Assembly: GCF_002310835.1 (NCBI RefSeq)
Contig: NZ_CP011042.1
Location: forward strand, 450,001-482,000
Reading direction: 5' to 3'
DNA: 32,000 nt
Source: Pseudoalteromonas tetraodonis
Lineage (GTDB): Bacteria; Pseudomonadota; Gammaproteobacteria; Enterobacterales; Alteromonadaceae
Under the pieces are notes generated by a model. It was not told the DNA's origin, did not search any database, and saw only the letters and a program-made list of their open reading frames with translations. Position numbers and translations under genes: made by a program. Shown here in pieces: positions 947 through 27,325 of the stretch (the stretch's first letter is position 1; each line of letters begins with the position of its first letter).

Positions 947-1648
947 GTGACTAAGTGGTATTGTGTATTATTGTTCATTGTAAGTCATCATTGTGCGGCT
1001 AAACTTACTGTTGTAACAGAGAACTTTGCGCCTGCGCAGTATCTGGACGCGAATAACAATTTAGTAGGTGATGCTGCCGATAAAGTCCGATTAGTGCTTG
1101 ATAGCGCAGGTATTGATTATTCAATTTCTGTAAATGATTGGAGTATGGCTTACAATATTGCACTGAGAGATCCCCAAACCTGTATATTTTCTATTTCTCG
1201 TTCGCCTGAGCGGGAACATAATTTTATTTGGTTTGCTAAGCTTGCCCAATTTGACACTAATTTTTACTCCCTTAAAAGCAAAGGTATTTCCTTAACTAAT
1301 TTAGAGCAGGCAAAGCAATACCGTATTGCGGTTTTAAAAGATAACTACAGCCATCATTACTTACTTTCAAAGGGCTTTAAAGAAAACGAAAATTTAATGC
1401 TGTTTAGTAGTTTTGATAATATTTTTAAGATAATCCAAACCCGAAGTTCGAGTATTGATTTAGTTGTTATACCAGCGCAGCGAATAAACCATGAACAATC
1501 TCATTTATTAAATAAATTACAACTCGAATTACTTATGCCCATCAATGCCCATCAAGCCCCTTTATATTTCGCCTGTAATAAAAATCTACCCGATAACGTA
1601 AAGCAACAACTTAGCGCGGCTTTTTCTTCATATGAGTCTAAACTATAA
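947..1648 (+). CDS. Periplasmic solute-binding protein (family 3, amino-acid-type fold), orphan with no adjacent ABC permease or ATPase
   Basis: GTG start followed by a signal peptide (MTKWYCVLLFIVSHHCAA). Mature part starts KLTVVTENFAPAQY, and the ~230 aa length is typical of orphan SBP_bac_3-like proteins of marine gammaproteobacteria. Confidence 0.7.
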   Translation: MTKWYCVLLFIVSHHCAAKLTVVTENFAPAQYLDANNNLVGDAADKVRLVLDSAGIDYSISVNDWSMAYNIALRDPQTCIFSISRSPEREHNFIWFAKLAQFDTNFYSLKSKGISLTNLEQAKQYRIAVLKDNYSHHYLLSKGFKENENLMLFSSFDNIFKIIQTRSSSIDLVVIPAQRINHEQSHLLNKLQLELLMPINAHQAPLYFACNKNLPDNVKQQLSAAFSSYESKL

Positions 1649-7574: not shown

Positions 7575-8983
7575 TGAGTTTAAGAGCAATCAGTTTTAGT
7601 GCTTTTACTTTAGCAATTTTATCTGGATGTCAGTTAGCTCCTCAACAAGAAGCGCTAAATTTACCTGTCCCTGATGCGTATGCATCAGAGACAGGGGATG
7701 AGCAGGTGTCCTCGTTACAATGGCAGCAGTTTTTTAATGATGAAAAACTTAAAACACTGATATCACAAAGTCTTGAACATAATAAAGACCTACAAATAGC
7801 TGCTTTAAATGTTCAGCGCGTGCGTGGTTTGTATCAGATTGAAGATTCAGCGTTATATCCATCACTGGATTTTAATGCATCAGGAAGTCGTCAGCGTTTA
7901 CCCAGCGATTTATCAGCAAGTGGTCAACCACAAATAAGTTCTCAATACAGTGCAACGGTAGGCATGACGGCTTACGAGTTAGATTTATGGGGTAAAGTAC
8001 GCAATCAGTCAGAGCAAGCATTACAAACGCTTTATTCAACTCAGCTGAGCCAATACACCATGCAAGTGTCGTTAATTACAGAGCTTGCTAATGCATGGTT
8101 AAATTACGCGACAGATCAACAGTTGTTAGCGTTGGCACAAGAGACGTTATCATCGCAGCAAGCATCCTTATCATTAACCCAAAAAAGTGTTGATTTAGGT
8201 GCCGCTTCTAAAATTACGCTGGAACAGCTTAAAAGTACGGTAGCCACAGCGAAAGTTGATATTGCTAAATACCAACGTTTAGTGAAACGCGATAAAAACG
8301 CGCTTGATTTATTAGTAGGTAAAACGGTAGGTGAGGATTTACTGCCAAGTAAGTCATTAAATTATTTATTAGACTTGCCTAGTGTGCCTGTGGGTTTACC
8401 TTCTGATTTACTAACGCAGCGACCAGATATAAAAGCAGCAGAGCATCAGCTGTTAGCCGCTAACGCTAACATTGGTATTGCCCGTGCAGCGTTTTACCCG
8501 AGCATTAGTTTAACTGCCAATGCAGGAACTGCATCACGTGATTTAAGTAATTTATTTGATGCAGGCTCAGGCACATGGAGCTTCATGCCATCGGTAAATT
8601 TACCTATTTTTAATATGGGTCGAAATCAAGCAAATTTAGATGTCGCTAACGCAGAGCAACAAGTTGCTGTAGCAACGTACCAGCAAAAAATACAGCAAGC
8701 ATTTCGTGAAGTTGCTGATGTACTTGCGGATAGAGAAGGCTATAACGCACAGTTAATGGCTCTTGAGGAGTTATTACAAAGCCGAAAGACAACCTTTGAA
8801 TTATCGCAGGCGCGCTACGACAAAGGGGTTGATAGCTTTTTACAAGTGCTTGACGCTCAGCGAACTTGGTATAGCGCAAGGCAGCAATTGATCACGGGCC
8901 AACAAGCTGTGCTTGCAAGCCAAATCAATTTATACAAAGCGGTTGGCGGTGGCTGGCAGACCACTACTTCAACCGTTAAGTAA
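7574..8983 (+). CDS. Outer-membrane efflux factor lipoprotein (NodT/OprM family)
   Basis: Its start overlaps the pump stop by 1 nt (TAATG at 7572-7576). Lipobox LSGC, a duplicated OEP architecture and the motifs QRPDIKAAEHQL, FYPSISLTANAG and YKAVGGGW are present. Confidence 0.95.
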   Translation: MSLRAISFSAFTLAILSGCQLAPQQEALNLPVPDAYASETGDEQVSSLQWQQFFNDEKLKTLISQSLEHNKDLQIAALNVQRVRGLYQIEDSALYPSLDFNASGSRQRLPSDLSASGQPQISSQYSATVGMTAYELDLWGKVRNQSEQALQTLYSTQLSQYTMQVSLITELANAWLNYATDQQLLALAQETLSSQQASLSLTQKSVDLGAASKITLEQLKSTVATAKVDIAKYQRLVKRDKNALDLLVGKTVGEDLLPSKSLNYLLDLPSVPVGLPSDLLTQRPDIKAAEHQLLAANANIGIARAAFYPSISLTANAGTASRDLSNLFDAGSGTWSFMPSVNLPIFNMGRNQANLDVANAEQQVAVATYQQKIQQAFREVADVLADREGYNAQLMALEELLQSRKTTFELSQARYDKGVDSFLQVLDAQRTWYSARQQLITGQQAVLASQINLYKAVGGGWQTTTSTVK

Positions 8984-15341: not shown

Positions 15342-18300
15342 TTAGAACGTGTAACGAACACCTACACGCATTTCCCATAAAGACGCATCGCGTTGTACAG
15401 ACTGTTCAGCACTACGTGCACTGAAGTTTGAGTAAACGTATTGACCTTGGTCATTAATATTTACTTCAACCATCTTATTACCCACGAAAGAGCCTTTTCT
15501 TAATACACCCCAATCATCGTTTAACATATTCGTTAAGTTATCGATTACGAAGAATGCTTCACCTTTATGGCCATCCATAAAGCCAGGTACTTCTTGAGTG
15601 ATTTTAAAGTTAAATTTAACGAACCAATCAGAGTTCTGTTGGTTACGACCAGTGATTTCACCACGTTTAAGACCTTCAGATGCGATAAAGTCATTAAACT
15701 CATTGATTTCATCAGCACTCATGTTGTAGACAACGTTTGGATCATTTTCAAGTGGTACATACAATAATTGACGCGCGCCATTAGAGTTTCTATCACCAAA
15801 TTGAATATCGCCCGCACCCGTGTCGCGATTACTCTTGTAGGTAAAGCTATATGGTAAACCTTTGTATGCTTCACCAAATAGGTTAAAGCGGGTGTTATAA
15901 CCATCGAAGAACTCGTGTTTATAACCTAGGTTTAATGTAAAGCGATGTGGGATTTCGTAATCAGATGATGCCACGCCAGGGTTACCTGGGTTTGATGTTG
16001 CTAGGTTACCGTAGTTTGAGCTGGCTACAGAGCTAGTCATTGGGTTTACATCATCTGCATCAGTGTAAGCGTATGAGAACTGAACGCTAACGCCATTATC
16101 AAACGCTTTACTTACTGCAGCAGATATAATTGAAGACTCACCACTATCACCATTCACATTTGTTAGTAATAGTTCACCACTACGATATTTACCTGGATTT
16201 AATGGATCTTCTTTTCTTTCATAGATAGGACGACCATCAAAAGTAGTTTTACCAGAATCTTGTAAAGCAATATCTACAAGAGTCGCTGCATCTCGCTTCT
16301 TAGTGTAAAGGTAATCCAAAGCAATAACATAGTCGTTTTCTGTAGTATATGTAGCACCTAAAGAGTACTTCCACTCTGATGGGATTTCAAAGTTAGGATC
16401 TACCGCGTTTGTTGTAGCATCACCCGAACCAATTTCAGTATTTGCTACTTTATCAAACATATCTTGTGGAACGTCGTAACCTGGAGTACCACCATTTACA
16501 TTTGGCGTATCAAATAGGTCAACTAGAGTGACTTCATCATCACCAGAACCAACTTTATAAGAATTACTGATATCGCTGATATAAGCACCAATATTGGTGA
16601 TACCATCATTTGAATATGAGTTAGACAACCATACATTAGGGTTACCGCCTGAGAACAAACCAACACCCGCACGTACTTCTAGTGCATCGGTTGCATACCA
16701 CTCAAAACCTACGCGTGGTTGAATTAAATCAATACCGTCAAACGTTGACTGATTGCTAAAACCGTAACGATTAGTGAAATTCTGATTTAATGTTGGTTTG
16801 TCATCGCTTGAATAGCTGTCGTAACGAAGACCAAATGTTAATGATGCATCGATATCTGAAAAGCTGTATTCATCTTGTACATAAAATGTATTTTGTGAAT
16901 AAGCAAAGTTAGCAGCTGCATCATTTGGGTTATTCGTACTTGCAGAGTTATTATAATAAACTGCATTAGCAATCCCATTTCTGTATGCGTCAATCGAAGC
17001 AAAACGCCATTCACCTTCAGTATGTTGTACGAATTGGTTAAATACTTCTAACTTTTCATACTCAAAACCAGCGGTAATCGTGTGCTGATCAAGGTAGTAG
17101 GTACCTGAGAATTTAGCTGTTGTGGTATCGTAGTTTAAATCATTTGATTGACGAGAGTCATCAGGACCAACGTACACCGTGGCATTATCTGTGCTGATTT
17201 GGAACTCACCAAAACCGCTTGCTGCGTCTAAAGATTGAACGCGAGCGTCAAGCTCTGATTTACCTAAACGAACTTCAGTTGAAAAGTTGTCATTCCAATC
17301 AGAGTAAAGTGATGCAACGATTGAAGTGAACTCTGCGCCTTGCTCATAAAAGTGGCTGTCAAATGCGAGCTCATCACCATCTGCATCTGATTGCGATAAA
17401 GTAAAGCCATCATTGTAGTTATAAATTAGGTTAGCACGGTGGTCATCGTTGATGTTCCAATCTAGCTTCACTAAGATTTTTTCATCTTCTACTGGTGAGC
17501 TAGCTGGTGTTGCACCGGCTTCGTAACCATAAACATCACGTGTAATTTGTTTAATTTCATCAATTTCTGCAGAAGACACTAAAGATGAATAGTTAAACTG
17601 TTTAACACCTTCAAGTTTTTCGTAAGAAGTGAAAAGGAACAGCGTGTCATTAATTAGCGGTAAACCAACATTAAAGCCATAACGTTTTTCACTGTAATCG
17701 CCGTTATCAACGTCATTACCTTCAATCTTATCGCCTTTCATCGAATCGTTAGTGTAATCGTAGAATACACCACCGTGAATGTCGTTGCCGCCAGATTTGG
17801 TAACTGCATTGATGTTACATGATGTAAAACCACCATATTGAACATCAAAAGGGGCTAATTCTACCGCTACTTGCTCGATTGAATCAAAAGAGAACGGAGC
17901 GCGAATAGTAGGGTAACCGTTTGAGCTTAAACCAAAGTTATCGTTCATGCGAACGCCATCAAGGGTTAAGCTGTTAAAACGTGGATTACCACCACCACAG
18001 TTGATTGAACCACGGCTATCATCGATAGCAACGCGAGGGTCAATACGAATAATATCTTTTAAATCACGGTTAATAGCTGGTTGATTTTCAAGATCGCTTA
18101 ATGTGAATGTTGAAGCAGGACCCGTACCACCAGACATAGTGCTAATAGGACGACCAGTTACTACAATTTGTTCAACATCTGAGATATTTTCAAGTGAAGT
18201 ATTAACAGGGTAGTCGCTACCAATGTTCAAGATAATATTATTGAACTCTTGGTCAGCGTAGATGTCTGAGTCTACAATTACTTTGTAAGGGCCGCCAACG

Positions 18301-18530
18301 CGAAGACCTTTAGCAGTAAAGTAACCAGCGTCATTTACTTCAGTTGTTTTAACAGAGCCTGAAGGAACATGTAAAATAGTAATTTTAGTTCCTGCAGCAG
18401 GGTTACCGTTAGGACCCTTTATTTGACCTTTAATTGCAGAGGTTGTTTCGTTTGCAATTGCAGCACCACTCACACCAACACATGCTGCTATAGCAAGTGA
18501 TAGAGCTGTTTTGCGAAGTTGAATTTTCAT
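15342..18530 (-). CDS. TonB-dependent outer-membrane receptor, Oar-like (N-terminal carboxypeptidase-regulatory-like domain + plug + large barrel)
   Basis: 1062 aa with a signal peptide (...GAAIANE). An Ig-like domain (GQIKGPNGNPAAGTKITILH...GLRVGGPYKV) precedes the plug start EQIVVTGRP. NAVTKSGGN is present and the C-terminus is RVGVRYTF (terminal Phe). Confidence 0.93.
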   Translation of the reverse strand: MKIQLRKTALSLAIAACVGVSGAAIANETTSAIKGQIKGPNGNPAAGTKITILHVPSGSVKTTEVNDAGYFTAKGLRVGGPYKVIVDSDIYADQEFNNIILNIGSDYPVNTSLENISDVEQIVVTGRPISTMSGGTGPASTFTLSDLENQPAINRDLKDIIRIDPRVAIDDSRGSINCGGGNPRFNSLTLDGVRMNDNFGLSSNGYPTIRAPFSFDSIEQVAVELAPFDVQYGGFTSCNINAVTKSGGNDIHGGVFYDYTNDSMKGDKIEGNDVDNGDYSEKRYGFNVGLPLINDTLFLFTSYEKLEGVKQFNYSSLVSSAEIDEIKQITRDVYGYEAGATPASSPVEDEKILVKLDWNINDDHRANLIYNYNDGFTLSQSDADGDELAFDSHFYEQGAEFTSIVASLYSDWNDNFSTEVRLGKSELDARVQSLDAASGFGEFQISTDNATVYVGPDDSRQSNDLNYDTTTAKFSGTYYLDQHTITAGFEYEKLEVFNQFVQHTEGEWRFASIDAYRNGIANAVYYNNSASTNNPNDAAANFAYSQNTFYVQDEYSFSDIDASLTFGLRYDSYSSDDKPTLNQNFTNRYGFSNQSTFDGIDLIQPRVGFEWYATDALEVRAGVGLFSGGNPNVWLSNSYSNDGITNIGAYISDISNSYKVGSGDDEVTLVDLFDTPNVNGGTPGYDVPQDMFDKVANTEIGSGDATTNAVDPNFEIPSEWKYSLGATYTTENDYVIALDYLYTKKRDAATLVDIALQDSGKTTFDGRPIYERKEDPLNPGKYRSGELLLTNVNGDSGESSIISAAVSKAFDNGVSVQFSYAYTDADDVNPMTSSVASSNYGNLATSNPGNPGVASSDYEIPHRFTLNLGYKHEFFDGYNTRFNLFGEAYKGLPYSFTYKSNRDTGAGDIQFGDRNSNGARQLLYVPLENDPNVVYNMSADEINEFNDFIASEGLKRGEITGRNQQNSDWFVKFNFKITQEVPGFMDGHKGEAFFVIDNLTNMLNDDWGVLRKGSFVGNKMVEVNINDQGQYVYSNFSARSAEQSVQRDASLWEMRVGVRYTF

Positions 18531-18857: not shown

Positions 18858-21800
18858 TTAAAACTTATAGCTAACACCAATTTTAGCTTGCCAAGCTGAT
18901 GAGCTAGTTTGATATTGGCTATAGTTACGAACATCAGCGCCATTAAATCTGCTATCAATTATATAACGACCTTGATCGTCTAAGCCGCCAAAGTCGTAAA
19001 CTGCTTGGTCAGAGAAACCTAAGCGCTTTTCTACGCCCCAGTCACTGTTTAATAAGTTGGCAAAGTTATCAATCATAAAGTAAACCTCACCGCTATGACC
19101 TTTTGCAAAACCAGGGATCTCTTGTTTAACGCTAATATCCATAGTGGTAACCCATGGTTGCGTACCTGAGTTACGGTCTAAGATTTGGCCTCGCTCAGAA
19201 ATACCCGCTCTATTAAGTAGTGTCTCAAGTTCACTCCATGATAGCCCTGATTCATCCCAATTTACATTGGCATCATCTGCACCAGTTGGAATATACGCTA
19301 AATAAGCTGAGCTTGAATAAAAGTCACGCGTATCACCTAAGTCACTATCTTGATACATACCCATAGTATAGCTAAATGGACGACCAGAGCGACGTTCGAA
19401 ATACACATTAAACCTTGTGGCATAACCACTGAAGAACTCAGTGTTATACGCTAAATTAACTTTAAAGCTATGCTCTACTTCATACGCACCACGGGCAGCA
19501 AAGTCTTCATTTCGGCTCTTAGTGATATTGTACTGATAGTTGCTTTGTGCACGTGAAGAAGAACCTGAAGACGCTTCTGTTACATCTTGATGCGCATAGC
19601 TTGCTGAAATATAAAGGCCATTTTCCCACTCTTTAGCTAGTGCTGTTGTAATAATAACAGAACGACCATCATCAGTTGAGTTAGTCATTGCTATATCAAA
19701 GTTATCAGCTAAATCACCGCTGTAAATACTTTCATAGATGATACGCTCGCCGTCGGCCGCTACACCTACAGGTTTAATGGCGGTGTTATGCCACACAGCT
19801 TCGTTTTCTTTTTTGTGATAAGCAATTTCTGCTTGCCATTTAAAGCCTTCACCTAGTAATTCAGAATCAAAGTCGTACTCAAATCCAAGTTGTGCACGAA
19901 TACTTGACGGTAGTTCAAAGTTAGGATCAACATAGTTAGTGCTACCTGCACCTTGAACTAAAGAGCCTTTTATGGCATCTGGTACTTGAGTGATATCAGC
20001 TTGATTATTAGCATAATAATCGTTAATAGCACTTTGAGGTGCATCTACAAAAGTAATGCCATCGTTTTGGAATGAGTTATTGTACCAAACGTTAGGGATA
20101 CCACCTTGGAAACGACCTACACCACCGTTAACTGTTAATGCTTCTGTAGCGTAATACTTAAAGCCAATACGCGGTAGAATAATATCTAACCCATCGAGGT
20201 TTTCTTGATTGCTAAAGCCATAGGTGTTTAAAAAGTTTTCGTTGAGTGTTGGTTTATCATCAGAAGATAAACGCTCATAACGAACACCTGCCGTTACTTC
20301 TAAATCATCACCAACATAAAAAGTATCTTCAATGTAAAGTGCTAATTGATTACGGGTTGCGTCGTAAGCAGTGTCATTAGGGTTATTTGTAAAGGCATTG
20401 CTGTAGCTAAAATCGTACTTTCCTTTGTAGTTACCTACTTCACGATTTTCGAAACCATTAAAGTTATCAAATTCCCATGAACCGAGAGAGTTAGCTGCAA
20501 AAAGGTTGTATAAGTTTAACGACTCATATTGCATACCAAAGTTAATTTCATGCTCGTCCATTAAATAAGTGGCATCAAGAGAAAGTGTTAAATTTTCTGT
20601 TGCTGAGCTATTTGCATGGCGAAACTCATCGGTACCAAAGTTATAAGAAGGCCCGCGGAAGTATTCTTCAACTTTAACGCTACCAATATCAGAATTTGTT
20701 AAACTTCTCGATGATACATCTTTGTATGCAATACCGATTTCAGTTGAAAAGTCTTCATTCCAATCTGAATATAGCTTGGTAGCAAAGTTATTAAACTTGG
20801 TTGCGTAGGTATAACGACTTGATGCAAACTGAACTGATGTGCCACCAGTACCAAAGTTTGTTTCATCTTTGTCATCTTGCCACTGATAGGTAAAATCTAA
20901 GCGATGATCATCAGCAATGTTCCAGCTTAATTTTACAAGTAATGTTTCGTTGGTGTCTTTAGGGTCGCCTCCAAGAGAGTCTGTTAAGCCGTATTCGTTA
21001 TTTAGAATATTAAGGAAACGGTTATAGCTTTCTTCACTCACATCGTATTCGTTGGTTGCGCCTGAACCTTCAAAACCATAATCTAAATCTAGTTCACTCG
21101 ACCATTTGTTGTAGTTAACAAAGTAAAATAAGGTATCGTCTATAAGTGGGCCGCCAACATTAAAACCGTAGCGTTTTTCAGTTTGATTAGGTTCTACTTG
21201 TTCAACAATGTATGTGCGGTGACCATCGTCATCTAAAACAGGGCGGTTATCAGCAAACACTTGAGATATGCTGTCTACATCGCCAGCAATATCTGGTGTC
21301 GATGTTTCGTAAAAACCAGAAAACTTAAGTTCGTTAGTACCTGACTTAGTTACCGCGTTAATAGTACCACCACCAAAGTTGCCTTTAGAGGCTGAAAATG
21401 GAGAAACATCAACAGATATTTGCTCAATCGCATCAAGGGCTACAGGGGGCTGCGAAGTAGGGTAGCCGCCGTAACTTAAACCAAAGTCGTCATTTTGGCC
21501 AATACCATCTACAGTTAAACCATTTGTACGTGGGTTGCTACCGGCAAAGGTTAGCTCGCCGCTACCATTAATACTAGCAAGTGGGTTTAAACGTGCGATG
21601 TCTTTAATGTCACGATTAAAGCTAGGCATATTATTGATAGTATCTTCGCCAAACGTACTACTAGAGCCACCTGACTGTTGTACAATTTTATAACCAGAGA
21701 CTTCAATCTTTTCAATGTTTAGCGGCGCTAATTGCGATGTTAATCTGTAAGTTTCGCCAAGGTTTAAAAAGATGTTTTCAACGGTGGTATCGTTAAACGT

Positions 21801-22064
21801 ATCAGAGTCGATGATCACAGTGTAAGGTCCACCAACACGCAAACCATTCGCAATGAAAGTACCACTTTCATTGGTCGTTAGTTCACTAATTGTGCCAGTT
21901 GGTTGATGAACAACCTTAATTTTAACGTTTGCAGCGCTCGCACCTGAAGGTGTGGTTATTTTACCACGCATTGCAGATGAAGTGTCAGCAGCCATAGCGC
22001 TTGTTGAAACTCCTAGAGCTAGAATTACAGCCCCAGTTAATTTCGAAAGGCGAAGCTTAGTCAT
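18858..22064 (-). CDS. TonB-dependent outer-membrane receptor, Oar-like, paralogue of 15342-18530
   Basis: 1068 aa with the same architecture (GKITTPSGASAANVKIKVVH...GLRVGGPYTV, EKIEVSGYK, NAVTKSGTN, C-terminal KIGVSYKF). A long block is shared with the paralogue (DDKPTLNENFLNTYGFSNQ...PRIGFKYYATEAL...NVWYNNSFQNDGIT). Confidence 0.93.
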   Translation of the reverse strand: MTKLRLSKLTGAVILALGVSTSAMAADTSSAMRGKITTPSGASAANVKIKVVHQPTGTISELTTNESGTFIANGLRVGGPYTVIIDSDTFNDTTVENIFLNLGETYRLTSQLAPLNIEKIEVSGYKIVQQSGGSSSTFGEDTINNMPSFNRDIKDIARLNPLASINGSGELTFAGSNPRTNGLTVDGIGQNDDFGLSYGGYPTSQPPVALDAIEQISVDVSPFSASKGNFGGGTINAVTKSGTNELKFSGFYETSTPDIAGDVDSISQVFADNRPVLDDDGHRTYIVEQVEPNQTEKRYGFNVGGPLIDDTLFYFVNYNKWSSELDLDYGFEGSGATNEYDVSEESYNRFLNILNNEYGLTDSLGGDPKDTNETLLVKLSWNIADDHRLDFTYQWQDDKDETNFGTGGTSVQFASSRYTYATKFNNFATKLYSDWNEDFSTEIGIAYKDVSSRSLTNSDIGSVKVEEYFRGPSYNFGTDEFRHANSSATENLTLSLDATYLMDEHEINFGMQYESLNLYNLFAANSLGSWEFDNFNGFENREVGNYKGKYDFSYSNAFTNNPNDTAYDATRNQLALYIEDTFYVGDDLEVTAGVRYERLSSDDKPTLNENFLNTYGFSNQENLDGLDIILPRIGFKYYATEALTVNGGVGRFQGGIPNVWYNNSFQNDGITFVDAPQSAINDYYANNQADITQVPDAIKGSLVQGAGSTNYVDPNFELPSSIRAQLGFEYDFDSELLGEGFKWQAEIAYHKKENEAVWHNTAIKPVGVAADGERIIYESIYSGDLADNFDIAMTNSTDDGRSVIITTALAKEWENGLYISASYAHQDVTEASSGSSSRAQSNYQYNITKSRNEDFAARGAYEVEHSFKVNLAYNTEFFSGYATRFNVYFERRSGRPFSYTMGMYQDSDLGDTRDFYSSSAYLAYIPTGADDANVNWDESGLSWSELETLLNRAGISERGQILDRNSGTQPWVTTMDISVKQEIPGFAKGHSGEVYFMIDNFANLLNSDWGVEKRLGFSDQAVYDFGGLDDQGRYIIDSRFNGADVRNYSQYQTSSSAWQAKIGVSYKF

Positions 22065-22107
22065 AATGTTGATTTCCCATGTAGATGATTTAAGTTAGAA
22101 ACTAAAT

Positions 22108-22962
22108 TTATTTTTGTGTTTGCTGTGTTAAGGCCATTTTTGATTGCGTGTTAGCAGGATCAAATAATGTATTTAACAATCCAGCCAAGCGAATTCCCGC
22201 TTGTTGCAAGCGTGTTTTCACAATAGGGGTGTTGTTGTAGATATAGTCGTAGCTAATCTGTTCTTCTGTTGAGTCATATATTTTTAGGGCTAAGTTGTGC
22301 GACTCTTCAAGCCAGCTTGCTGGTGTACTTTGTAAATATTCACTAATTAGCTCGCTGTTGTTGGTATTTATAAACTGAGCGTATTCAGTAAAAGATAAGT
22401 TTTCGTTTTCTACTAACTTGGTATCCCATAAGCTATGAAGATTGGTTTGTTGGTTAAAAAAAGAAACCTTAACGCGATTGCCGCCTCTATCTTCTGCTCT
22501 TCCTGCATGAAATGGTTGATGGCTGTCGCCGACTAAGTGCACCAAAAAACGCAAGCTAAACTGTTTGGCCGCAAGGCTTGATTTATCATCTTTCAACACG
22601 CGGATAGAGTAGTGAATGCCTTCTAATATGTTTGTTACTGATTCTTTGTGTTTAGTGTGGTCGTGGTCAAAACTAAAGGTCGCGTTGTCATCAGCATTAA
22701 TGTAATGCCAACGAGATGATTTTTTTTGCCAAAAGTCACCTGGTGCAGATCGCATTTCGTCAGGCCATGTTGAAATCTGAGCTAAAGATTCGCCGTTGAG
22801 ATAGGGGATAAGTGCAGTCTTAGTAGTTTCGCTTATGTGCGACTCTGCAATTTTACCCACTACACGATGCCCGTTTTGGCCCCAAGCATTACAATCTGTG
22901 CTTGCAAATATTGCACTAATTAAAAGTGTTAAAGAAAGCGAATATTTTACATTTTTGTACAT
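22108..22962 (-). CDS. Secreted S1/P1-family zinc nuclease
   Basis: Signal peptide ending ...TDCNA, then mature N-terminus WGQNGHRVVG (N-terminal Trp is a Zn ligand in this family). WPDEMR, WHYIN, HLVGDSHQPFH, GGN and NLHSLWD are all present. Its stop is only 43 nt upstream of the TonB-receptor ATG, with no hairpin between. Confidence 0.92.
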   Translation of the reverse strand: MYKNVKYSLSLTLLISAIFASTDCNAWGQNGHRVVGKIAESHISETTKTALIPYLNGESLAQISTWPDEMRSAPGDFWQKKSSRWHYINADDNATFSFDHDHTKHKESVTNILEGIHYSIRVLKDDKSSLAAKQFSLRFLVHLVGDSHQPFHAGRAEDRGGNRVKVSFFNQQTNLHSLWDTKLVENENLSFTEYAQFINTNNSELISEYLQSTPASWLEESHNLALKIYDSTEEQISYDYIYNNTPIVKTRLQQAGIRLAGLLNTLFDPANTQSKMALTQQTQK

Positions 22963-23100
22963 TGAAGCATCCTAGTTAGTGTGACATTTATTTTGTAAAC
23001 GCTGATAAGGTCAATTGTCCTCATTTTTTTGGTTGATAGAAAGGACTCAATAAAATTCATATTTTCTTGTTTAAAATTGTTTTTATTCAATGGCTTGGGT

Positions 23101-23129
23101 TTGACAGGTAAAATTACCTGTTGTAATAA
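23101..23129 (+). promoter_or_regulatory. Consensus -35 (TTGACA) overlapped by an 18 bp perfect palindrome, with a weak -10-like TAATAA 17 bp downstream
   Basis: TTGACA at 23101-23106. ACAGGTAAAATTACCTGT at 23104-23121 is a perfect palindrome. TGTAATAA lies at 23122-23129. The element is 19-45 nt upstream of the ATG at 23148. Confidence 0.4.
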
Positions 23130-23147
23130 GTAATTAAAATTGTTCAA

Positions 23148-24068
23148 ATGAGCTATTACTCTAATTTAAATGGGTGTTTTTTGAATATTAAGAAGTTAAT
23201 GTTGCATAAAACAGCGATTGTTATATTTATGTTTCTGGGCGTGTTGCTAAGTTGGTTTTCAGGTCAAGTTATTGTGGGCGAAGAAGATATAACATTCCCA
23301 GTGATAATAGAGACATCAACGACATGTCAAACAACGGCAACGGCTAATAAGAGTCAACTTATAGTATTTACCCCCTCAAAATACGTTGCTCAGTTACTTA
23401 CTCAAAATCTCTGTGGCGACAAAGTAGTGGCAAAACAGTATGGCTCTGTCATTGGCTATTGGGGATATAGAACCGTTGATAGCTTAGAGTTTGTAGGTAA
23501 AGGTATTGCAGATTTAATTTTAGCGAAAAATAATATCATGGATGCGTTTAAGGCTGAATCTACTTACAACTATCAGCCTGTGGTTGGCTTTTCTGATTAC
23601 ACTGCATTTTTTATCTCTTCAAAAGAAAAACCTAAGATCAGCAAACAATATTTTTTAGATAAAAAAATCGGTCTGTTAGATTATCCAACGAGTCGCTCAG
23701 GACACATTTTACCCAAGCAAGCCTTTAAAGAGCTAGGCCTAAACATTGCTCAGCTAAAAATAACCTATGCGAGTTCACACAATGAGTTGAGAGAATTATT
23801 GGCGAACGGGGAAGTAGACCTTATTGCCTCTTTTTGGAGAGAAAGTGACAGTCAGCGTTTTTCAAAAAATTATATTACGCCTATTAGTAGTAATGTGGCA
23901 GGCACCCGTTGGTACTTAAAAATGCAGCATAACAATACTGATTTACTCTGTGCTGTACAGTCTCACTTATTGAGTATGTCTAAGGAACAATCGTTTCAAT
24001 ATTATCAAGATGTTGAGCCATATTGGCAGTGCAATAGTTACCCCGTTACCTTTATAGGGGAGTCGTAA
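23148..24068 (+). CDS. Membrane-anchored periplasmic binding-protein-fold protein (PhnD / phosphonate-binding-like type 2 PBP domain)
   Basis: One N-terminal hydrophobic helix (AIVIFMFLGVLLSWF). The block KKIGLLDYPTSRSGHILPKQAFKELGLNIAQLKITYASSHNELRELLANGEVDLIASFW resembles the PhnD-type core (binding-loop TSxSG, then xGxxDxA). An alternative in-frame start is the ATG at 23199. Confidence 0.6.
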   Translation: MSYYSNLNGCFLNIKKLMLHKTAIVIFMFLGVLLSWFSGQVIVGEEDITFPVIIETSTTCQTTATANKSQLIVFTPSKYVAQLLTQNLCGDKVVAKQYGSVIGYWGYRTVDSLEFVGKGIADLILAKNNIMDAFKAESTYNYQPVVGFSDYTAFFISSKEKPKISKQYFLDKKIGLLDYPTSRSGHILPKQAFKELGLNIAQLKITYASSHNELRELLANGEVDLIASFWRESDSQRFSKNYITPISSNVAGTRWYLKMQHNNTDLLCAVQSHLLSMSKEQSFQYYQDVEPYWQCNSYPVTFIGES

Positions 24069-25015
24069 TGAATAGGTTAATATGGATAATATGCACAATT
24101 TTTTTATTCTTGGTTTTCTCGTCAGTATTTTATTTTTCGACAATACAAAAACAACAGCAAGTAAATAAATTACAAATAATACAAATAGAAAAACGAATCG
24201 CTTTAGACTTACCTTTGTTAGATTTATCAAATGAGCTGCTTAAACACTCAGGTAATAAAGCAGCTTTACTTAATTATATTCAAACCTTAAACACCTTTAT
24301 TGATAGTACCGGTATTGAGGTTGTAGCTATAACGCCAAAACATGAATTTGATGCTTCTTTAAAAACTTCCACAGAGTTTATTCGAGAGTTAAATAGTAAT
24401 AATGGTGTGGTGTTTATTGTTTTGTCTTTGAGGCAGCCGTATTTTACGCGTGATGTGATAGCTATTTATGGGATGCTTTTTATTCTTAGCATATTACTAA
24501 CATACCTAATAAAATTAGCATATATCAACAAAAATGATGATAAACAGGTTATTCACGCAGAATCAAATACTACAGAGTCAAAACCATTAACCCTGATTAT
24601 TGATTTAAAAAGTAAAACCTTATCTAGTAGCGTTTCTTTGGAGCACCAAGTGGCTTTGGCAAACAAACCTCTATGTTTTTATTTAGCGCTTGTTGAATAT
24701 TGCACTAACAATCCAGAGATCAAGCTTAATCATAACAAGAATGTACCCGAGGAATTGATAGAGCTTGCCAATAAGTATTTCTATCGTTTAGTTGAGCTTG
24801 GTCATACAGTAAGAAAACGTCCAAACTTTAATAACAGTCTAGAGAAAACATTAAGTGAAATTCGTGCGGCACTGGATGACGTGTTAAATGATTGCCCTGA
24901 ACAAAAGGGATTATACTACCCACCGAAAGCATTTGGAGAGGGCTCACGCTCACGAATGCACAGTTATGGGTTAGCAAATGTGGGTCAAGGAAATATAGAA
25001 ATAATAGGAAAGTAA
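24068..25015 (+). CDS. Two-TM membrane protein with a ~110 aa periplasmic domain and a C-terminal cytoplasmic winged-helix-like (OmpR/ToxR-type?) domain
   Basis: The ATG overlaps the upstream stop (TAATG at 24066-24070). TM1 is LIWIICTIFLFLVFSSVFYF and TM2 is VIAIYGMLFILSILLTYLIKLAY. The C-terminal region (24581-25012) follows the spacing pattern of Trans_reg_C domains: LIIDLKSKTL..., VALANKPLCFYLALVEYCTNNP, RKRPNFNNSLEKTLSEIRAALDDV, MHSYGL. The domain call is inference only. Confidence 0.6.
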   Translation: MNRLIWIICTIFLFLVFSSVFYFSTIQKQQQVNKLQIIQIEKRIALDLPLLDLSNELLKHSGNKAALLNYIQTLNTFIDSTGIEVVAITPKHEFDASLKTSTEFIRELNSNNGVVFIVLSLRQPYFTRDVIAIYGMLFILSILLTYLIKLAYINKNDDKQVIHAESNTTESKPLTLIIDLKSKTLSSSVSLEHQVALANKPLCFYLALVEYCTNNPEIKLNHNKNVPEELIELANKYFYRLVELGHTVRKRPNFNNSLEKTLSEIRAALDDVLNDCPEQKGLYYPPKAFGEGSRSRMHSYGLANVGQGNIEIIGK

Positions 25016-25088: not shown

Positions 25089-25122
25089 GATGAGTGTCAT
25101 GACTATATCAATGACACTCATC
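25089..25122. terminator. Hairpin between convergent genes (probable terminator)
   Basis: Perfect 12 bp stem GATGAGTGTCAT / ATGACACTCATC with a 10 nt loop. There is no strong U-tract. Confidence 0.5.
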
Positions 25123-25140: not shown

Positions 25141-26760
25141 CTATTTAGGTGCAAACTCATGTGCATCAACAGGGCTGTGCTCTGCAAAAAATCGTTTTAA
25201 TGCCTGAGCGTCCGTTTCATCGGTGCTTACGAATCCTTTCATGTGAGTAATTTTAGGGTAACTATCGCCACCAGAAGCATTATATTCATTAATACTCATG
25301 CGGTATGTTTTGTTTATATCAAGCGGCTTGCCGGCGATGAACACGTTAGTTACTTGATCCTCTTTAAGCTCAAAGGCTAAGTTGTGGTATTGCATGTAGG
25401 CTCCAGAGTCTGGTGGGAAACGCGTCACGACATTTAAATAGGTTAAAATATCATTGCCTTTGAAATCGATATAAGCGACACGGTTTTTAAAAGGCTGTAC
25501 TTTGAGTATGTCTTTATAACTCACGTCACCCGCATTGATGCTATCGCGAACACCGCCACCACTGATAATGCCAAAATCGGCACCTACGGTATTCATTTGC
25601 GCTTGAATAATAACGCGGGCAAGGTTAGTTTGCTCAAAGCGTACTTTATTTCGATCTCCCTCGAGTCTGTCATTCACAAAGCCAATTTTACCTTCAATTT
25701 GCTTTGCCCCTTTTTGTTGGTATGCCGCTAAAAAGGTTTGCAGTGCTGGATCTGGTTTAATGTAATTTGCAGCAAGTACGGATTTTACGCTACCGTCTTT
25801 TTGCTTTTTATCTACGTATAAATTAACGGGCAATAATTGATAACTTAGCAGTGATAATTGACCGTTTTCTAATTTAAACTCCGCTTTACCCACATACTTA
25901 CCCCATTCATGGGCTTGCATTATCCAGGTTCCATTTTGTCGATCAGGTTTACAGGCTAAACCTGGCTTAAAATTCTCATCTGTGACATTTTCTGCAGCCA
26001 TACACACTGGCTCTTGGGAATGGCCACCAATAATCATATCAAGGGCATTTTTATCTAAAGAGCGGGCAAGTGTGACATCACCTGGGGCATTTATTCCATA
26101 ATTGGCATCTACATAATGCCCCATGTGCGTTACCGCAATGGTAATGTCAGGATTGTATTTTGCTTTTAATGTTTGGGTAAGTGAGGCGGTTATTTCAACC
26201 GGATCTTTAAAATCTAAATGGCCAATGTATTGCGGGTTACCAATTTTAGCGGTGTCTGTCGTTGTTAACCCAATTACAGCAATGGTTAAGCCGCCTTTGT
26301 TGAATATTTTATAACGTTCAAAGATAGTTTCATTAGTTTGTTTATCAAAGATATTAGCTGATAAAAGAGGGAAATTAGCCCATTGCTGTTGCTGTCTTAA
26401 TACACTTAATGGATTATCAAACTCGTGGTTACCTAGTGCCATTGCGTCATAGCCAATTTTCGACATGCCTTTGAAATCGGGCTCAGCAAATTGTAGATCT
26501 GATTCAGGGATACCGGTATTAATATCGCCACCTGATAATAATAAAACCTGATGCCCTTGTGCTTTTGCATCGGCTCTTAGCTGGTCGATTAGGGTTTTAC
26601 GCGCAGCCATACCATATTCGCCTTTTTCATTATGCCAAAAGCGACCATGATTATCATTGGTATGAAGAACAGTTAAATAGTGTGCTGCAGGTTTATTGAC
26701 TGAGTCACTGACACAGCCATATAAACCAAGAAATAAAATGAGAAAAACAAGAATACGCAT
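25141..26760 (-). CDS. ushA: 5'-nucleotidase / UDP-sugar hydrolase (UshA/NutA family), predicted lipoprotein
   Basis: Calcineurin-like phosphoesterase motifs are present: LHTNDNHGRF, LLSGGDINTG, LGNHEFD, VTHMG, IIGGHSQ. A C-terminal 5'-nucleotidase domain follows. I prefer the ATG at 26760, giving MRILVFLILFLGLYGC (lipobox LYGC), over the TTG at 26781. Confidence 0.92.
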   Translation of the reverse strand: MRILVFLILFLGLYGCVSDSVNKPAAHYLTVLHTNDNHGRFWHNEKGEYGMAARKTLIDQLRADAKAQGHQVLLLSGGDINTGIPESDLQFAEPDFKGMSKIGYDAMALGNHEFDNPLSVLRQQQQWANFPLLSANIFDKQTNETIFERYKIFNKGGLTIAVIGLTTTDTAKIGNPQYIGHLDFKDPVEITASLTQTLKAKYNPDITIAVTHMGHYVDANYGINAPGDVTLARSLDKNALDMIIGGHSQEPVCMAAENVTDENFKPGLACKPDRQNGTWIMQAHEWGKYVGKAEFKLENGQLSLLSYQLLPVNLYVDKKQKDGSVKSVLAANYIKPDPALQTFLAAYQQKGAKQIEGKIGFVNDRLEGDRNKVRFEQTNLARVIIQAQMNTVGADFGIISGGGVRDSINAGDVSYKDILKVQPFKNRVAYIDFKGNDILTYLNVVTRFPPDSGAYMQYHNLAFELKEDQVTNVFIAGKPLDINKTYRMSINEYNASGGDSYPKITHMKGFVSTDETDAQALKRFFAEHSPVDAHEFAPK

Positions 26761-26800
26761 AAAATACCTATCGATTAACAAAACTCAGTATAGTAGGCGG

Positions 26801-26835: not shown

Positions 26836-27030
26836 TTATTCATATTTTTCAGCCAATGAGACTTCACGTTGCTGCTCTACAACCCGTTTTCTGCGTGCGA
26901 GCTCATCATGTGCGTATTGAGATTTTTGATGATTTACATCAATCATCCATTTCAAAAAGCTGACGGGAAGCTGGGTGTATGGTTCACCTTGGTGTAGCCC
27001 AAAGTCACAAATAGTCGTGTTGTTTGCCAT
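26836..27030 (-). CDS. Small protein (64 aa), DUF3820 / ExoX-C-terminal-like
   Basis: I prefer the ATG at 27030 (AGGAG upstream on the minus strand). The motif FGLHQGEPYTQLPVSFLKWM resembles the (F/K)GKxxGxxxxxxPxxYLxW motif I recall from that family. The family call is weak. Confidence 0.5.
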   Translation of the reverse strand: MANNTTICDFGLHQGEPYTQLPVSFLKWMIDVNHQKSQYAHDELARRKRVVEQQREVSLAEKYE

Positions 27031-27325
27031 TATATTTACTCCTATCACTGTGTAGGCTGATAATAACAAAAAAAGAGTGATTGATAAGGGGCTTTTTAAG
27101 TACCTTGCTAGGCTTAAAGTTAATTAAAAAAGAGTCACCGTGATGTACACCAAGGCACTCAGACAATTAACTCTCCATCACGTGTTTAAAATTAAAATGT
27201 AAACAGTTGTAACTACAGTGTAATTACTTTGATATGAATTGTAGCGTTAAGTGCTTATGTATCGATTTATAAAATGAATAACACTACTCTATGACGCCTA
27301 ATGACAATAAAAAATAGGAATAATA

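What the first reader, a model, noticed from the sequence alone, without database searches (positions are those of the whole stretch)
23148..25015. Translationally coupled pair: membrane-anchored PhnD-like binding protein plus a two-TM protein with a C-terminal winged-helix-like domain (inverted ToxR/ToxS-style co-component system?)
The two ORFs overlap by one base (TAATG at 24066-24070) and are noticeably AT-richer than their neighbours. The first has a single N-terminal helix followed by a type-2 periplasmic binding fold resembling phosphonate/phosphate-ester binding proteins. No ABC permease or ATPase is nearby, so a sensory role is more likely than a transport role. The second is predicted as TM1, a ~110 aa periplasmic domain, TM2, then a ~145 aa cytoplasmic tail. 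The tail follows the residue spacing of OmpR/ToxR-type wHTH domains (helix VALANKPLCFYLALVEYC, recognition-helix-like SLEKTLSEIRAALDDV, wing-like HSYGL). Known co-component systems (ToxR/ToxS, TcpP/TcpH, VtrA/VtrC) put the wHTH at the N-terminus with a single TM. An N-out-in, C-terminal wHTH version partnered with a PBP-fold sensor would be a different architecture. The pair shares a divergent control region with the nuclease-receptor operon and lies beside ushA, suggesting it senses nucleotides or phosphate esters and controls that locus.
Basis: inference. Interest (0 to 1): 0.72.

Follow-up and report, generated by a model that had tools for sequence, protein, structure and literature searches.

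The report
Membrane-bound regulator with binding-protein partner
Two overlapping genes in a marine Pseudoalteromonas most likely encode a periplasmic ligand sensor and a small membrane-bound DNA-binding regulator of an uncharacterised family, which always sit beside an outer-membrane receptor and nucleic-acid-scavenging genes that they probably switch on.

Summary
Two ORFs (23148/23199-24068 and 24068-25015) overlap at TAATG. The pair is inherited together: 79 of 80 related genome loci and the two most distant family members looked at.

ORF1 is a divergent PhnD/SsuA-type binding protein with no ABC transporter nearby. ORF2 matches no Pfam, NCBIfam or PDB sequence, and its family is small (93 clusters among 1.84 billion representatives).

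A confident AlphaFold model gives TM1, a small periplasmic domain, TM2 and a cytoplasmic C-terminal domain. The eight best PDB fold matches of that domain are all the Vibrio cholerae ToxR DNA-binding domain (probability up to 0.97, but E 0.045 and TM 0.37-0.50). Profile methods do not confirm homology (hhalign 4.7%).

A 145-bp intergenic block is conserved across genera. The constant neighbour is a divergent TonB-dependent receptor. Its companions are nuclease/UshA in Pseudoalteromonas, or nuclease, uridine kinase, NupC and phosphodiesterase in other genera.

Best reading: a minimal transmembrane transcription regulator with a binding-protein co-sensor that controls a nucleic-acid scavenging locus. 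ChiS/CBP and TfoS already show this layout with other DNA-binding domains, so it is a new variant of a known kind. DNA binding, ligand and topology are untested.

The parts
23011..23155 (.). Conserved intergenic control block shared with the divergent nuclease-receptor operon. Consensus blocks: TCAATTGTCC / AAAGGACTCAAT / GATTCATAAtTTCTTGTT / TCAAT / GTAAAaTTACC.aTTG.AA.AAGTAA / AATTG.TC.AAT.
   Evidence: An nhmmer profile hits exactly once in the window and in 78 of 80 loci, always just upstream of the binding-protein gene, with E <= 7e-20. It is missing only where the contig is cut. 55 of 148 columns carry >= 1.6 bits across genera. There is no Rfam match and no unusual RNA stability, z -0.77.
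23102..23130 (+). Candidate promoter of the pair: TTGACA, 17 nt, TAATAA. The perfect palindrome ACAGGTAA-AA-TTACCTGT (23104-23121) lies in the spacer.
   Evidence: Read from the sequence. The palindrome is reported. The core GTAAAATTAC is present in 48 of 79 loci. The tool's consensus scan does not list it because its -10 rule requires a final T. Function is inferred.
23199..24068 (+). ORF1: divergent PhnD/SsuA/transferrin-type class II binding protein, 289 aa from M18 (alternative starts 23148 and 23181). Four conserved Cys and a conserved YPTSRSGHILPK anion-loop motif.
   Evidence: Pfam PF12974 E 1.6e-5, below the gathering score. Many homologues carry PF12974 and NCBI names of the PhnD/SsuA/transferrin family. 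Alignment A5 gives the invariant columns. The only PDB sequence match is the phosphonate-binding protein 5jvb, E 0.48, with its STSSHLIPK aligned to TSRSGHILPK.
23208..23258 (+). N-terminal hydrophobic segment of ORF1: an uncleaved signal anchor or a signal peptide.
   Evidence: Kyte-Doolittle 19-residue windows > 1.5 starting at residues 16-26 of the 306-aa reading. The segment is conserved in homologues, and I saw no lipobox or obvious AXA site. Anchor versus cleavage is not resolved.
24057..24070 (+). Coupling junction: GGGGAG ribosome-binding site inside ORF1, then TAATG where the ORF1 stop and the ORF2 start overlap.
   Evidence: In related loci the two genes overlap by 1-14 nt or abut in nearly all cases: -8 in 21 loci, -11 in 19, and -1, -4 and -14 in 9 each (start sites chosen by heuristic).
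24068..25015 (+). ORF2: 315-aa two-TM protein of an uncharacterised family, proposed to be a transmembrane transcription regulator.
   Evidence: No Pfam, NCBIfam or PDB sequence match. 580 clusters at 90% identity match; the best 120 listed carry no Pfam domain and, where named, are called 'hypothetical protein' or 'membrane protein'. Only 93 representatives in 1.84 billion proteins. AF2 model mean pLDDT 92.6.
24077..24145 (+). TM1 of ORF2 (about aa 4-26). The helix continues into the conserved RIALDLP.L.L motif.
   Evidence: Hydropathy. Model helix 3-50. Conserved columns E41, A45-L48, L50, L53, N55.
24146..24448 (+). Periplasmic domain of ORF2 (about aa 27-127): small alpha/beta domain, variable in sequence, no recognisable relative.
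   Evidence: Model elements H64-81, E83-90, E103-110, E113-121. No meaningful fold match outside the C-terminal domain. Low conservation.
24449..24517 (+). TM2 of ORF2 (about aa 128-150).
   Evidence: Hydropathy 1.6-2.5. Model helix 128-167. Mean K+R is 2.85 in the 15 residues after TM2 against 1.1 before it, across 67 relatives.
24593..25012 (+). Cytoplasmic C-terminal domain (aa 176-315), nearly invariant in the family. Predicted order: beta-beta-beta, alpha1, alpha2, basic loop, alpha3, alpha4, long basic loop, beta. Resembles the ToxR-type winged helix-turn-helix.
   Evidence: Domain model pLDDT 89.3, pTM 0.85. The Foldseek PDB top 8 are all the ToxR DNA-binding domain: E 0.045-0.37, probability 0.97-0.44, TM 0.33-0.38 by query and 0.40-0.50 by target, 100-105 columns. 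The full-length model gives the same top two. The viral library gives only noise, probability <= 0.06. hhalign against OmpR/ToxR/CadC domains is in register but weak, P 0.0086, probability 4.7%.
24839..24883 (+). Predicted recognition helix (aa 258-272, LEKTLSEIRAALDDV).
   Evidence: Model helix 258-272. hhalign pairs it with ToxR SLTQAISTLRKML, and in alignment A4 CadC VVTQSISELRKSL occupies the same columns. K260, S263, E264 and R266 are invariant or nearly so. 33 of 61 best local alignments to an OmpR/ToxR profile land here, at noise-level scores.
25089..25122 (.). Perfect 12-bp stem with a 10-nt loop between the convergent ORF2 and ushA. Candidate bidirectional terminator.
   Evidence: It has no clear U-tract and was not picked up by the terminator scan.
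18858..22962 (-). Divergent operon, the proposed target: S1/P1 nuclease (22108-22962) and a TonB-dependent receptor with a CarboxypepD_reg domain (18858-22064).
   Evidence: Pfam. A receptor of this type is divergent from the pair in 78 of 80 loci, and the nuclease is present in 71 of 80.
25141..26781 (-). UshA-like 5'-nucleotidase, convergent with ORF2. Context only.
   Evidence: Pfam Metallophos + 5_nucleotid_C. Present in 73 of 80 loci.

Best explanation
The two genes form one operon that encodes a two-part envelope sensor-regulator.

ORF1 is exported. It is tethered by its N-terminal helix or released into the periplasm. There it binds a small anionic ligand in a PhnD-like cleft.

ORF2 spans the inner membrane twice. 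Its small periplasmic domain would read the ligand state of ORF1. Its cytoplasmic C-terminal domain, a very divergent ToxR/OmpR-class winged helix-turn-helix, would bind the conserved 145-bp region between the pair and the divergent operon while staying in the membrane. In this way it would control the nuclease and TonB-dependent receptor operon, and probably its own promoter.

The most likely signal is a nucleic-acid breakdown product that carries a phosphate ester (nucleotide or short oligonucleotide) and arrives through the receptor.

Shown here: the gene pair, its coupling, its co-inheritance, the conserved control block, the locus theme, the binding-protein family, the two hydrophobic segments and a confident fold model.

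Inferred: DNA binding, the ORF1-ORF2 contact, the target promoters, the sign of regulation and the ligand.
For: Pair and coupling: TAATG overlap with an upstream GGGGAG. Overlap or abutment in nearly all relatives. The binding-protein gene lies directly upstream in 79 of 80 loci, and in two members at 18-22% identity.

Sensor rather than transporter: PF12974-type protein with a conserved TSRSG loop and four conserved Cys. No ABC genes among the ORFs scanned in the 32-kb window.

Topology: two hydrophobic helices and positive-inside bias after TM2.

DNA-binding domain: the top 8 PDB fold matches are all ToxR DNA-binding domains, most of them DNA complexes, with probability up to 0.97. Everything else in the PDB and viral libraries is at probability <= 0.08. 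The profile alignment to OmpR/ToxR/CadC domains is in register, with SEIR against SELR/STLR on the recognition helix. This domain is the most conserved part of the protein.

Target: a 145-bp intergenic block is conserved across genera whose proteins are only 40-50% identical. It occurs once per locus and is not a structured RNA.

Theme: the receptor is the constant neighbour. Its partners are S1/P1 nuclease and UshA in one set of genera, and an EEP nuclease, uridine kinase, NupC and an NPP phosphodiesterase in the other.

Precedent: CBP controls the membrane-embedded DNA-binding ChiS, and TfoS has a C-terminal DNA-binding domain.
Against: No sequence or profile method links the C-terminal domain to Trans_reg_C. 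There are no Pfam hits in 43 members even at E <= 10. hhalign probability is 4.7%. hmmsearch scores are at noise level.

The Foldseek E-values (0.045 and above), TM 0.37-0.50 and rmsd about 5 A are borderline. Among OmpR-family structures only ToxR is matched well (MtrA follows at E 2.2).

The canonical beta-hairpin wing is replaced in the model by a helix plus a long, lower-confidence loop.

The structure is a prediction. No binding site can be assigned within the conserved block, whose clearest symmetric element is a palindrome rather than the direct repeats usual for this class.

There are no expression, topology or ligand data. In two distant members on short contigs no receptor is seen nearby.
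Confidence: 0.55

Rival explanations
1. The pair is a signalling module, but ORF2 does not bind DNA. Its conserved cytoplasmic domain acts through protein contacts, for example by holding or activating a soluble regulator or RNA polymerase (like an anti-sigma or co-activator), or by binding a nucleotide second messenger.
For: No profile-level homology to any DNA-binding family. Fold similarity is only borderline, and the wing is atypical. The net charge of the domain is only about +0.7.
Against: No sigma factor or other partner gene is conserved next to the pair. The receptor matched no Pfam family other than CarboxypepD_reg, OMP_b-brl_4 and the TonB-receptor barrel, so no FecA-type N-terminal signalling domain was detected. 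The only meaningful fold matches are DNA-bound ToxR domains. A strongly conserved cis block travels with the pair.
Confidence: 0.17
2. The pair serves uptake rather than regulation. ORF1 captures the substrate released by the TonB-dependent receptor in the periplasm. ORF2 is a membrane dock or scaffold that hands it to degradative enzymes or to an inner-membrane carrier such as NupC.
For: ORF1 belongs to a transport-protein family. The pair always sits beside a receptor, and in some genera beside NupC and periplasmic or secreted hydrolases.
Against: Two TM helices cannot form a permease. No ABC, TRAP or TTT membrane component is in the locus. The most conserved part of ORF2 is a 140-aa cytoplasmic domain, which a periplasmic dock would not need. 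The ToxR-like fold and the conserved cis block are left unexplained.
Confidence: 0.12
3. ORF1 is an orphan binding protein of an ABC phosphonate or phosphate-ester transporter encoded elsewhere, and ORF2 is an unrelated membrane protein that happens to be adjacent.
For: The Pfam family name, and some source annotations that call homologues ABC-type phosphonate transport binding proteins.
Against: Strict co-inheritance with overlapping reading frames across the whole family, down to 18% identity. Both families have a narrow, matching distribution.
Confidence: 0.03

Closest known systems
ToxR/ToxS, TcpP/TcpH, VtrA/VtrC and CadC (ToxR-like transmembrane transcription regulators)
   Same: A membrane-anchored regulator with a ToxR-like winged-helix fold: the best solved matches are ToxR-DNA complexes, and the recognition-helix pattern resembles SELR/STLR. 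It is encoded next to a co-transcribed periplasmic partner. No phosphorelay domains are present. It would act on a nearby promoter.
   Different: The order is inverted. The wHTH-like domain is C-terminal after two TM helices, instead of N-terminal before one. The partner is a PhnD-type binding protein encoded upstream, not a ToxS/VtrC-type protein. There is no Pfam Trans_reg_C match. The wing is replaced by a helix and a long basic loop.
Vibrio cholerae ChiS with chitin-binding protein CBP (bioRxiv 10.1101/2020.01.10.902320; PMC12704726)
   Same: A periplasmic binding protein controls a membrane-embedded regulator. That regulator has two TM helices, a periplasmic domain and a cytoplasmic C-terminal DNA-binding domain, and it binds DNA while in the membrane. 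It controls a nutrient-polymer utilisation programme.
   Different: ChiS is a hybrid sensor kinase of more than 1,100 residues with kinase and receiver domains, and its DNA-binding domain is of a different type. ORF2 has 315 aa and none of those domains. The binding proteins belong to different families.
Vibrio cholerae TfoS
   Same: A transmembrane transcription regulator whose DNA-binding domain is at the C-terminus (residues 997-1,114; PMC13316777). It responds to a polymer breakdown product.
   Different: TfoS is much larger. From my own knowledge, its DNA-binding domain is AraC-type. No binding-protein partner is encoded with it.
Binding-protein co-sensors of two-component systems (LuxP/LuxQ cited; TorT/TorS and the PhnD-like arsenite sensor AioX/AioS from my own knowledge)
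   Same: A class I or II periplasmic binding protein is used for sensing instead of transport and is encoded next to its membrane signal transducer. AioX is a precedent for a PhnD-family sensor.
   Different: Those partners are histidine kinases that signal by phosphorylation to a separate response regulator. Here the membrane partner itself would carry the output domain.
PhnD phosphonate-binding proteins of ABC transporters (PF12974; PDB 5jvb)
   Same: Same binding-protein family by profile. The anion-binding loop aligns.
   Different: There are no phnC/phnE-type genes nearby. The match is very divergent (below the Pfam gathering score in this copy). There is an N-terminal hydrophobic segment that may be retained, and four family-specific conserved cysteines.

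Membership tests
OmpR/PhoB/ToxR-type winged helix-turn-helix (Pfam Trans_reg_C, PF00486) | Significant match to the family profile | tested here: not met
   No PF00486 hit for ORF2 at E <= 1, nor for any of 43 C-terminal domains at E <= 10. hhalign against a validated OmpR/PhoB/ToxR/CadC/TcpP alignment gives probability 4.7%, P 0.0086. hmmsearch scores run from about -1 to +3 bits.
OmpR/PhoB/ToxR-type winged helix-turn-helix (Pfam Trans_reg_C, PF00486) | Fold: N-terminal beta-sheet, then alpha1, alpha2, loop, alpha3 (recognition helix) | tested here: met
   The AF2 domain model (pLDDT 89.3) has E9-12, E17-20, E23-29, H32-47, H61-76, a 14-residue loop and H91-105. The top 8 PDB matches are all ToxR DNA-binding domains over 100-105 columns, probability up to 0.97, TM up to 0.50 by target. 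The statistics are borderline (E 0.045), and this is a predicted structure, not a solved one.
OmpR/PhoB/ToxR-type winged helix-turn-helix (Pfam Trans_reg_C, PF00486) | C-terminal beta-hairpin wing with the conserved G-Y motif | tested here: inconclusive
   The model shows helix 110-116, a long loop with pLDDT about 58 (GEGSRSR), single-residue strands and a final strand 143-146. A relaxed hhalign run pairs GEGSRS with the G.GY region. HSYGL could be the wing strand, but no hairpin is predicted.
OmpR/PhoB/ToxR-type winged helix-turn-helix (Pfam Trans_reg_C, PF00486) | Sequence-specific DNA binding | not testable with these tools
   Only indirect evidence: a conserved 145-bp block next to the genes.
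ToxR-like co-component transmembrane regulators (ToxRS, TcpPH, VtrAC, CadC) | N-terminal cytoplasmic wHTH, a single TM helix and a C-terminal periplasmic domain | tested here: not met
   ORF2 has two TM segments, and the wHTH-like domain is C-terminal.
ToxR-like co-component transmembrane regulators (ToxRS, TcpPH, VtrAC, CadC) | Adjacent co-transcribed gene for a periplasmic partner of ToxS/VtrC type | tested here: not met
   A partner gene is adjacent and overlapping, but it is a PF12974 binding protein encoded upstream.
PhnD/SsuA/transferrin-type binding proteins (PF12974) | Profile match at or above the curated threshold | tested here: inconclusive
   The window protein scores 24.8 bits against a gathering score of 27. 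Many homologues down to 47% identity carry precomputed PF12974. The family profile finds only PhnD 5jvb in the PDB, at E 0.48.
PhnD/SsuA/transferrin-type binding proteins (PF12974) | Encoded with ABC permease and ATPase genes (transport role) | tested here: not met
   None among the ORFs scanned in the window or in the neighbours examined in other genera.
ChiS/CBP-type binding-protein-controlled membrane regulators | Two TM helices, a periplasmic domain and a cytoplasmic C-terminal DNA-binding domain, with a binding-protein partner | tested here: inconclusive
   The layout and the adjacent partner gene are predicted. The ORF1-ORF2 interaction and DNA binding could not be tested.
ChiS/CBP-type binding-protein-controlled membrane regulators | Histidine kinase and receiver domains between the membrane and the DNA-binding domain | tested here: not met
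   No such Pfam domains, and only about 25 residues separate TM2 from the C-terminal domain.

The most novel reading that the evidence does not exclude
ORF2 founds an unrecognised family of minimal transmembrane one-component regulators. A ToxR-class DNA-binding domain has been moved to the C-terminus behind a two-helix sensor module and is obligatorily paired with a PhnD-like periplasmic receptor. Together they sense nucleotides or oligonucleotides imported by a TonB-dependent receptor. They directly switch on 'nucleic-acid utilisation loci' in marine Alteromonadales through a 145-bp divergent promoter conserved across genera.
Probability: 0.4. Interest if true: 0.75.

Novelty: new variant of a known kind. 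Interest (0 to 1): 0.64.

Why it matters
Transmembrane transcription regulators are few, are mostly known from Vibrio, and are described as understudied (PMC13316777).

A 315-aa member with the DNA-binding domain at the C-terminus and a binding-protein co-sensor would be the smallest system of this kind. It would be a convenient model for two questions: how a periplasmic ligand state is passed across two helices to DNA, and how a membrane-tethered protein reaches its promoter.

It would also identify the regulator of a conserved gene set in abundant marine heterotrophs. That set (receptor, nuclease, nucleotidase or phosphodiesterase, nucleoside carrier) appears to scavenge dissolved DNA or RNA. 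The regulator would also give a candidate biosensor for nucleotides. Finally, it would put names on two families that are currently annotated mostly as hypothetical proteins.

Tried and rejected
- Sequence searches of ORF2 and of its C-terminal domain found nothing usable. This covers Pfam, NCBIfam and PDB, as single sequences and as profiles. The weak PDB hits (ryanodine receptor, a Fab chain) are chance.
- Profile-profile comparison with OmpR/PhoB/ToxR/CadC/TcpP domains. The comparison gave an in-register but non-significant alignment, and changing alignment settings or using only ToxR/CadC/TcpP did not help.
- hmmsearch of that profile against 67 family members gave noise-level scores, only slightly above reversed and shuffled controls.
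- The viral structure library gave only noise.
- No similar DNA in the plasmid collection.
- The conserved intergenic block is not a known RNA family and does not fold unusually well, so I dropped a leader-RNA or riboswitch reading.
- The conserved motifs do not recur elsewhere in the window, apart from a probably chance palindrome inside an efflux gene. No wider local regulon could be defined.
- I looked by eye for a Pho box in the block and saw no convincing one. This was not tested formally.
- I could not assign which conserved block would be the regulator's site.
- An anti-sigma or FecR-like reading was rejected: there is no sigma factor gene nearby, and no Pfam match to a FecA-type signalling domain on the receptor.
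- Literature searches found no paper on these two families or on this locus.
Full report
**1. The observation**

The window carries ORF 23148..24068 (306 aa) and ORF 24068..25015 (315 aa) on the + strand. The sequence reads ...GGGGAGTCGTAATG..., with TAATG at 24066-24070. The ORF1 stop and the ORF2 start therefore share one base, and a Shine-Dalgarno-like GGGGAG lies 5 nt upstream.

GC content is 0.331 for ORF2 (0.293 in its N-terminal half) and 0.377 for ORF1. The flanking genes have 0.39-0.40 and the upstream intergenic region 0.271. The AT-richness is therefore clear for ORF2 and slight for ORF1.

ORF1 most likely starts at ATG 23199. Homologues are 289-298 aa. The ATG at 23148 lies in a conserved non-coding block where most relatives have no ATG.

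Best matches at 97% identity are from Pseudoalteromonas tetraodonis, P. issachenkonii and related strains.

**2. ORF1**

The window copy matches Pfam Phosphonate-bd (PF12974) at E 1.6e-5, just under the gathering score. Many homologues carry that domain and NCBI names of the PhnD/SsuA/transferrin family.

A 27-sequence alignment shows a conserved YPTSRSGHILPK motif and four conserved cysteines, which suggests an oxidising, periplasmic location. The family profile's only PDB match is a phosphonate-binding PhnD (5jvb, E 0.48), with its STSSHLIPK loop aligned to that motif.

There is one N-terminal hydrophobic segment. Whether it is cleaved is open. No ABC permease or ATPase gene was found among the ORFs scanned in the window.

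**3. ORF2**

ORF2 matches nothing in Pfam, NCBIfam or the PDB by sequence. Its 580 relatives at 90% clustering are, as far as listed, without Pfam domains and named 'hypothetical protein' where named.

A profile search of 1.84 billion representative proteins found only 93 relatives, nearly all 300-330 aa. This is a small, closed family.

Alignments show a variable N-terminal two-thirds and a nearly invariant last 140 residues.

AlphaFold with a 67-sequence alignment gave mean pLDDT 92.6. The model runs as follows:
- helix 3-50: TM1 plus an extension carrying the conserved RIALDL motif;
- a small alpha/beta domain;
- helix 128-167: TM2 plus an extension;
- a compact C-terminal domain.

Hydropathy supports both TM segments. 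Lys+Arg counts favour a cytoplasmic side after TM2: 2.85 after it against 1.1 before it.

**4. Is the C-terminal domain a winged helix?**

*For.*
- Foldseek of the full-length model against the PDB puts two ToxR-DNA complexes on top.
- The domain modelled alone (pLDDT 89.3, pTM 0.85) has ToxR DNA-binding-domain chains as its top eight hits. They come from five entries, with E 0.045-0.37, probability 0.97-0.44, TM 0.33-0.38 by query and 0.40-0.50 by target, over 100-105 columns. The OmpR-family regulator MtrA follows at E 2.2.
- All other hits there have probability <= 0.08. The viral library also gives only noise, at probability <= 0.06.
- The order of elements fits this class: three strands, alpha1, alpha2, a 14-residue basic loop (GHT.RKRP.F), then alpha3.
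- hhalign against nine OmpR/PhoB/ToxR/CadC/TcpP domains aligns the two profiles in register. L.IDL falls on the first strands and NSLEKTLSEIRAALD on the ToxR recognition helix SSLTQAISTLRKML, where CadC has VVTQSISELRKSL in the same alignment columns.

*Against.*
- The hhalign probability is only 4.7% (P 0.0086).
- No member hits Trans_reg_C in Pfam even at E <= 10.
- hmmsearch scores are at noise level, although 33 of 61 best alignments fall on the predicted recognition helix.
- The classical hairpin wing is replaced in the model by a short helix and a long basic loop (GEGSRSR) of lower confidence.

I put the chance that this is a DNA-binding wHTH of the ToxR/OmpR class at about 0.7. It is not a demonstrable member of PF00486.

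**5. Co-inheritance and context**

A scan of one genome per species found relatives in 225 species. The best 80 loci are Pseudoalteromonas plus Lacimicrobium, Bowmanella, Neptunicella, Algibacillus and Paraglaciecola.

| Feature | Loci (of 80) |
|---|---|
| Binding-protein gene directly upstream of ORF2 | 79 (the exception is cut by a contig end) |
| CarboxypepD_reg-type TonB-dependent receptor upstream on the opposite strand | 78 |
| S1/P1 nuclease | 71 |
| UshA | 73 |

The two reading frames overlap by 1-14 nt or abut in nearly all loci.

The two most distant ORF2 relatives I looked up (22% and 18% identity, on metagenome contigs) also have an abutting upstream gene of about 275 aa. One matches PF12974 at E 2e-5. 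The other matches the ORF1 family profile at P 3e-4.

In the seven Lacimicrobium, Bowmanella, Neptunicella and Paraglaciecola loci the nuclease and UshA are absent, but the theme persists. The order there is: EEP-family nuclease/phosphatase, then the receptor, then (divergent) the pair, then uridine kinase, a NupC nucleoside carrier, a 2OG-Fe(II) oxygenase and usually an NPP-type phosphodiesterase.

The constant core is therefore receptor plus pair. The variable shell is always nucleic-acid or nucleotide breakdown and nucleoside uptake.

**6. The control region**

The intergenic DNA next to ORF1 contains a 145-bp block (window 23011-23155) that aligns across genera.

A profile of it hits exactly once in the window and in 78 of 80 loci, always at that position, at E <= 7e-20. 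This includes 22 loci not used to build the profile. 55 of 148 columns carry at least 1.6 bits.

In the window it includes TTGACA-17-TAATAA, with the perfect palindrome ACAGGTAA-AA-TTACCTGT in the spacer, and an 11-nt direct repeat 63 bp apart.

It matches no Rfam family and does not fold better than shuffles. The motifs are not found upstream of other genes in the window.

Such conservation, alongside a near-invariant putative DNA-binding domain, fits a dedicated regulator-operator pair. I could not assign the site.

**7. Mechanism**

The best-supported model is a binding-protein co-sensor plus a minimal transmembrane transcription regulator. It would control the divergent receptor operon, and probably itself, in response to a periplasmic nucleic-acid-derived phosphate ester.

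| Element of the model | Confidence |
|---|---|
| Whole chain | about 0.55 |
| Pair and co-inheritance | > 0.95 |
| Binding-protein fold | about 0.9 |
| Topology | about 0.85 |
| DNA-binding fold | about 0.7 |
| Target operon | about 0.55 |
| Ligand class | about 0.35 |

The rivals are a signalling module that acts without DNA binding, an uptake scaffold, and chance adjacency.

**8. Comparison and novelty**

The domain resembles ToxR, but the architecture fails the ToxR-like definition. It has two TM helices, the output domain is C-terminal, and the partner is a binding protein.

The functional layout does have precedent. In V. cholerae the periplasmic binding protein CBP controls ChiS, a membrane-embedded regulator that binds DNA through a C-terminal domain (bioRxiv 10.1101/2020.01.10.902320; PMC12704726). 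TfoS also has its DNA-binding domain at residues 997-1,114 (PMC13316777). Those proteins are three to four times larger and use other DNA-binding domains, and ChiS also contains kinase and receiver modules.

I found no publication on this family or locus. I therefore rate it a new variant of a known kind. It is interesting to people who work on bacterial signalling and on marine dissolved-DNA turnover, but it rests entirely on prediction at the key step.

Noticed in passing
L043, L045, L059, L070, L074, L077, L079 (for example L074:367-11476): In Lacimicrobium, Bowmanella, Neptunicella and Paraglaciecola the pair and the receptor are flanked by a different gene set. It comprises an EEP-family nuclease/phosphatase, uridine kinase, a NupC nucleoside transporter, a 2OG-Fe(II) oxygenase and often an NPP phosphodiesterase. 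This looks like a second version of a nucleic-acid utilisation locus.
   Followed up: yes
window 15342-18530 and 18858-22064; loci L001-L080: The window has two tandem receptors of the same type that are only about 35% identical. Across species, either paralogue type can be the one next to the nuclease, so the receptor has been swapped or duplicated while the regulatory pair stayed.
   Followed up: partly
L074:8963-9802, L077:9200-10039, L081:2-502: A 2OG-Fe(II) oxygenase recurs near the pair, both in the outgroup genera and next to a very distant family member on a metagenome contig. Its role in a nucleotide-scavenging context is unclear.
   Followed up: no
L084:1-1373: Beside the most distant pair examined (18% identity), the divergent neighbours give weak matches to a phosphoribosyltransferase domain and to DprA (DNA_processg_A). 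These might be ComF/DprA-like DNA-uptake genes. The matches are at or below the curated thresholds.
   Followed up: no
window 26836-27069 (-): A 77-aa ORF just upstream of ushA, on the same strand, has no Pfam match but is conserved by tblastn in 63 of 80 loci.
   Followed up: partly
window 25089-25122: A perfect 12-bp inverted repeat with a 10-nt loop lies between the convergent ORF2 and ushA. It is probably a shared terminator, although it lacks a clear U-tract.
   Followed up: partly
window 8588-8609: GGTAAATTTACC, a palindrome close to the operator-like GGTAAAATTACC of the control region, lies inside the outer-membrane efflux gene. It is probably chance: 1 of 100 shuffles gave as many matches.
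   Followed up: no
window 947-1648 (+): Another small, weakly matching binding-protein-like ORF (SBP_bac_3, E 6e-5, below threshold) with no transporter genes beside it.
   Followed up: no
window 24068-24568: The part of ORF2 that encodes the TM helices and the periplasmic domain has GC 0.293, far below the 0.39 window average, and is the fastest-evolving part of the protein. The C-terminal domain has normal GC and is nearly invariant.
   Followed up: partly
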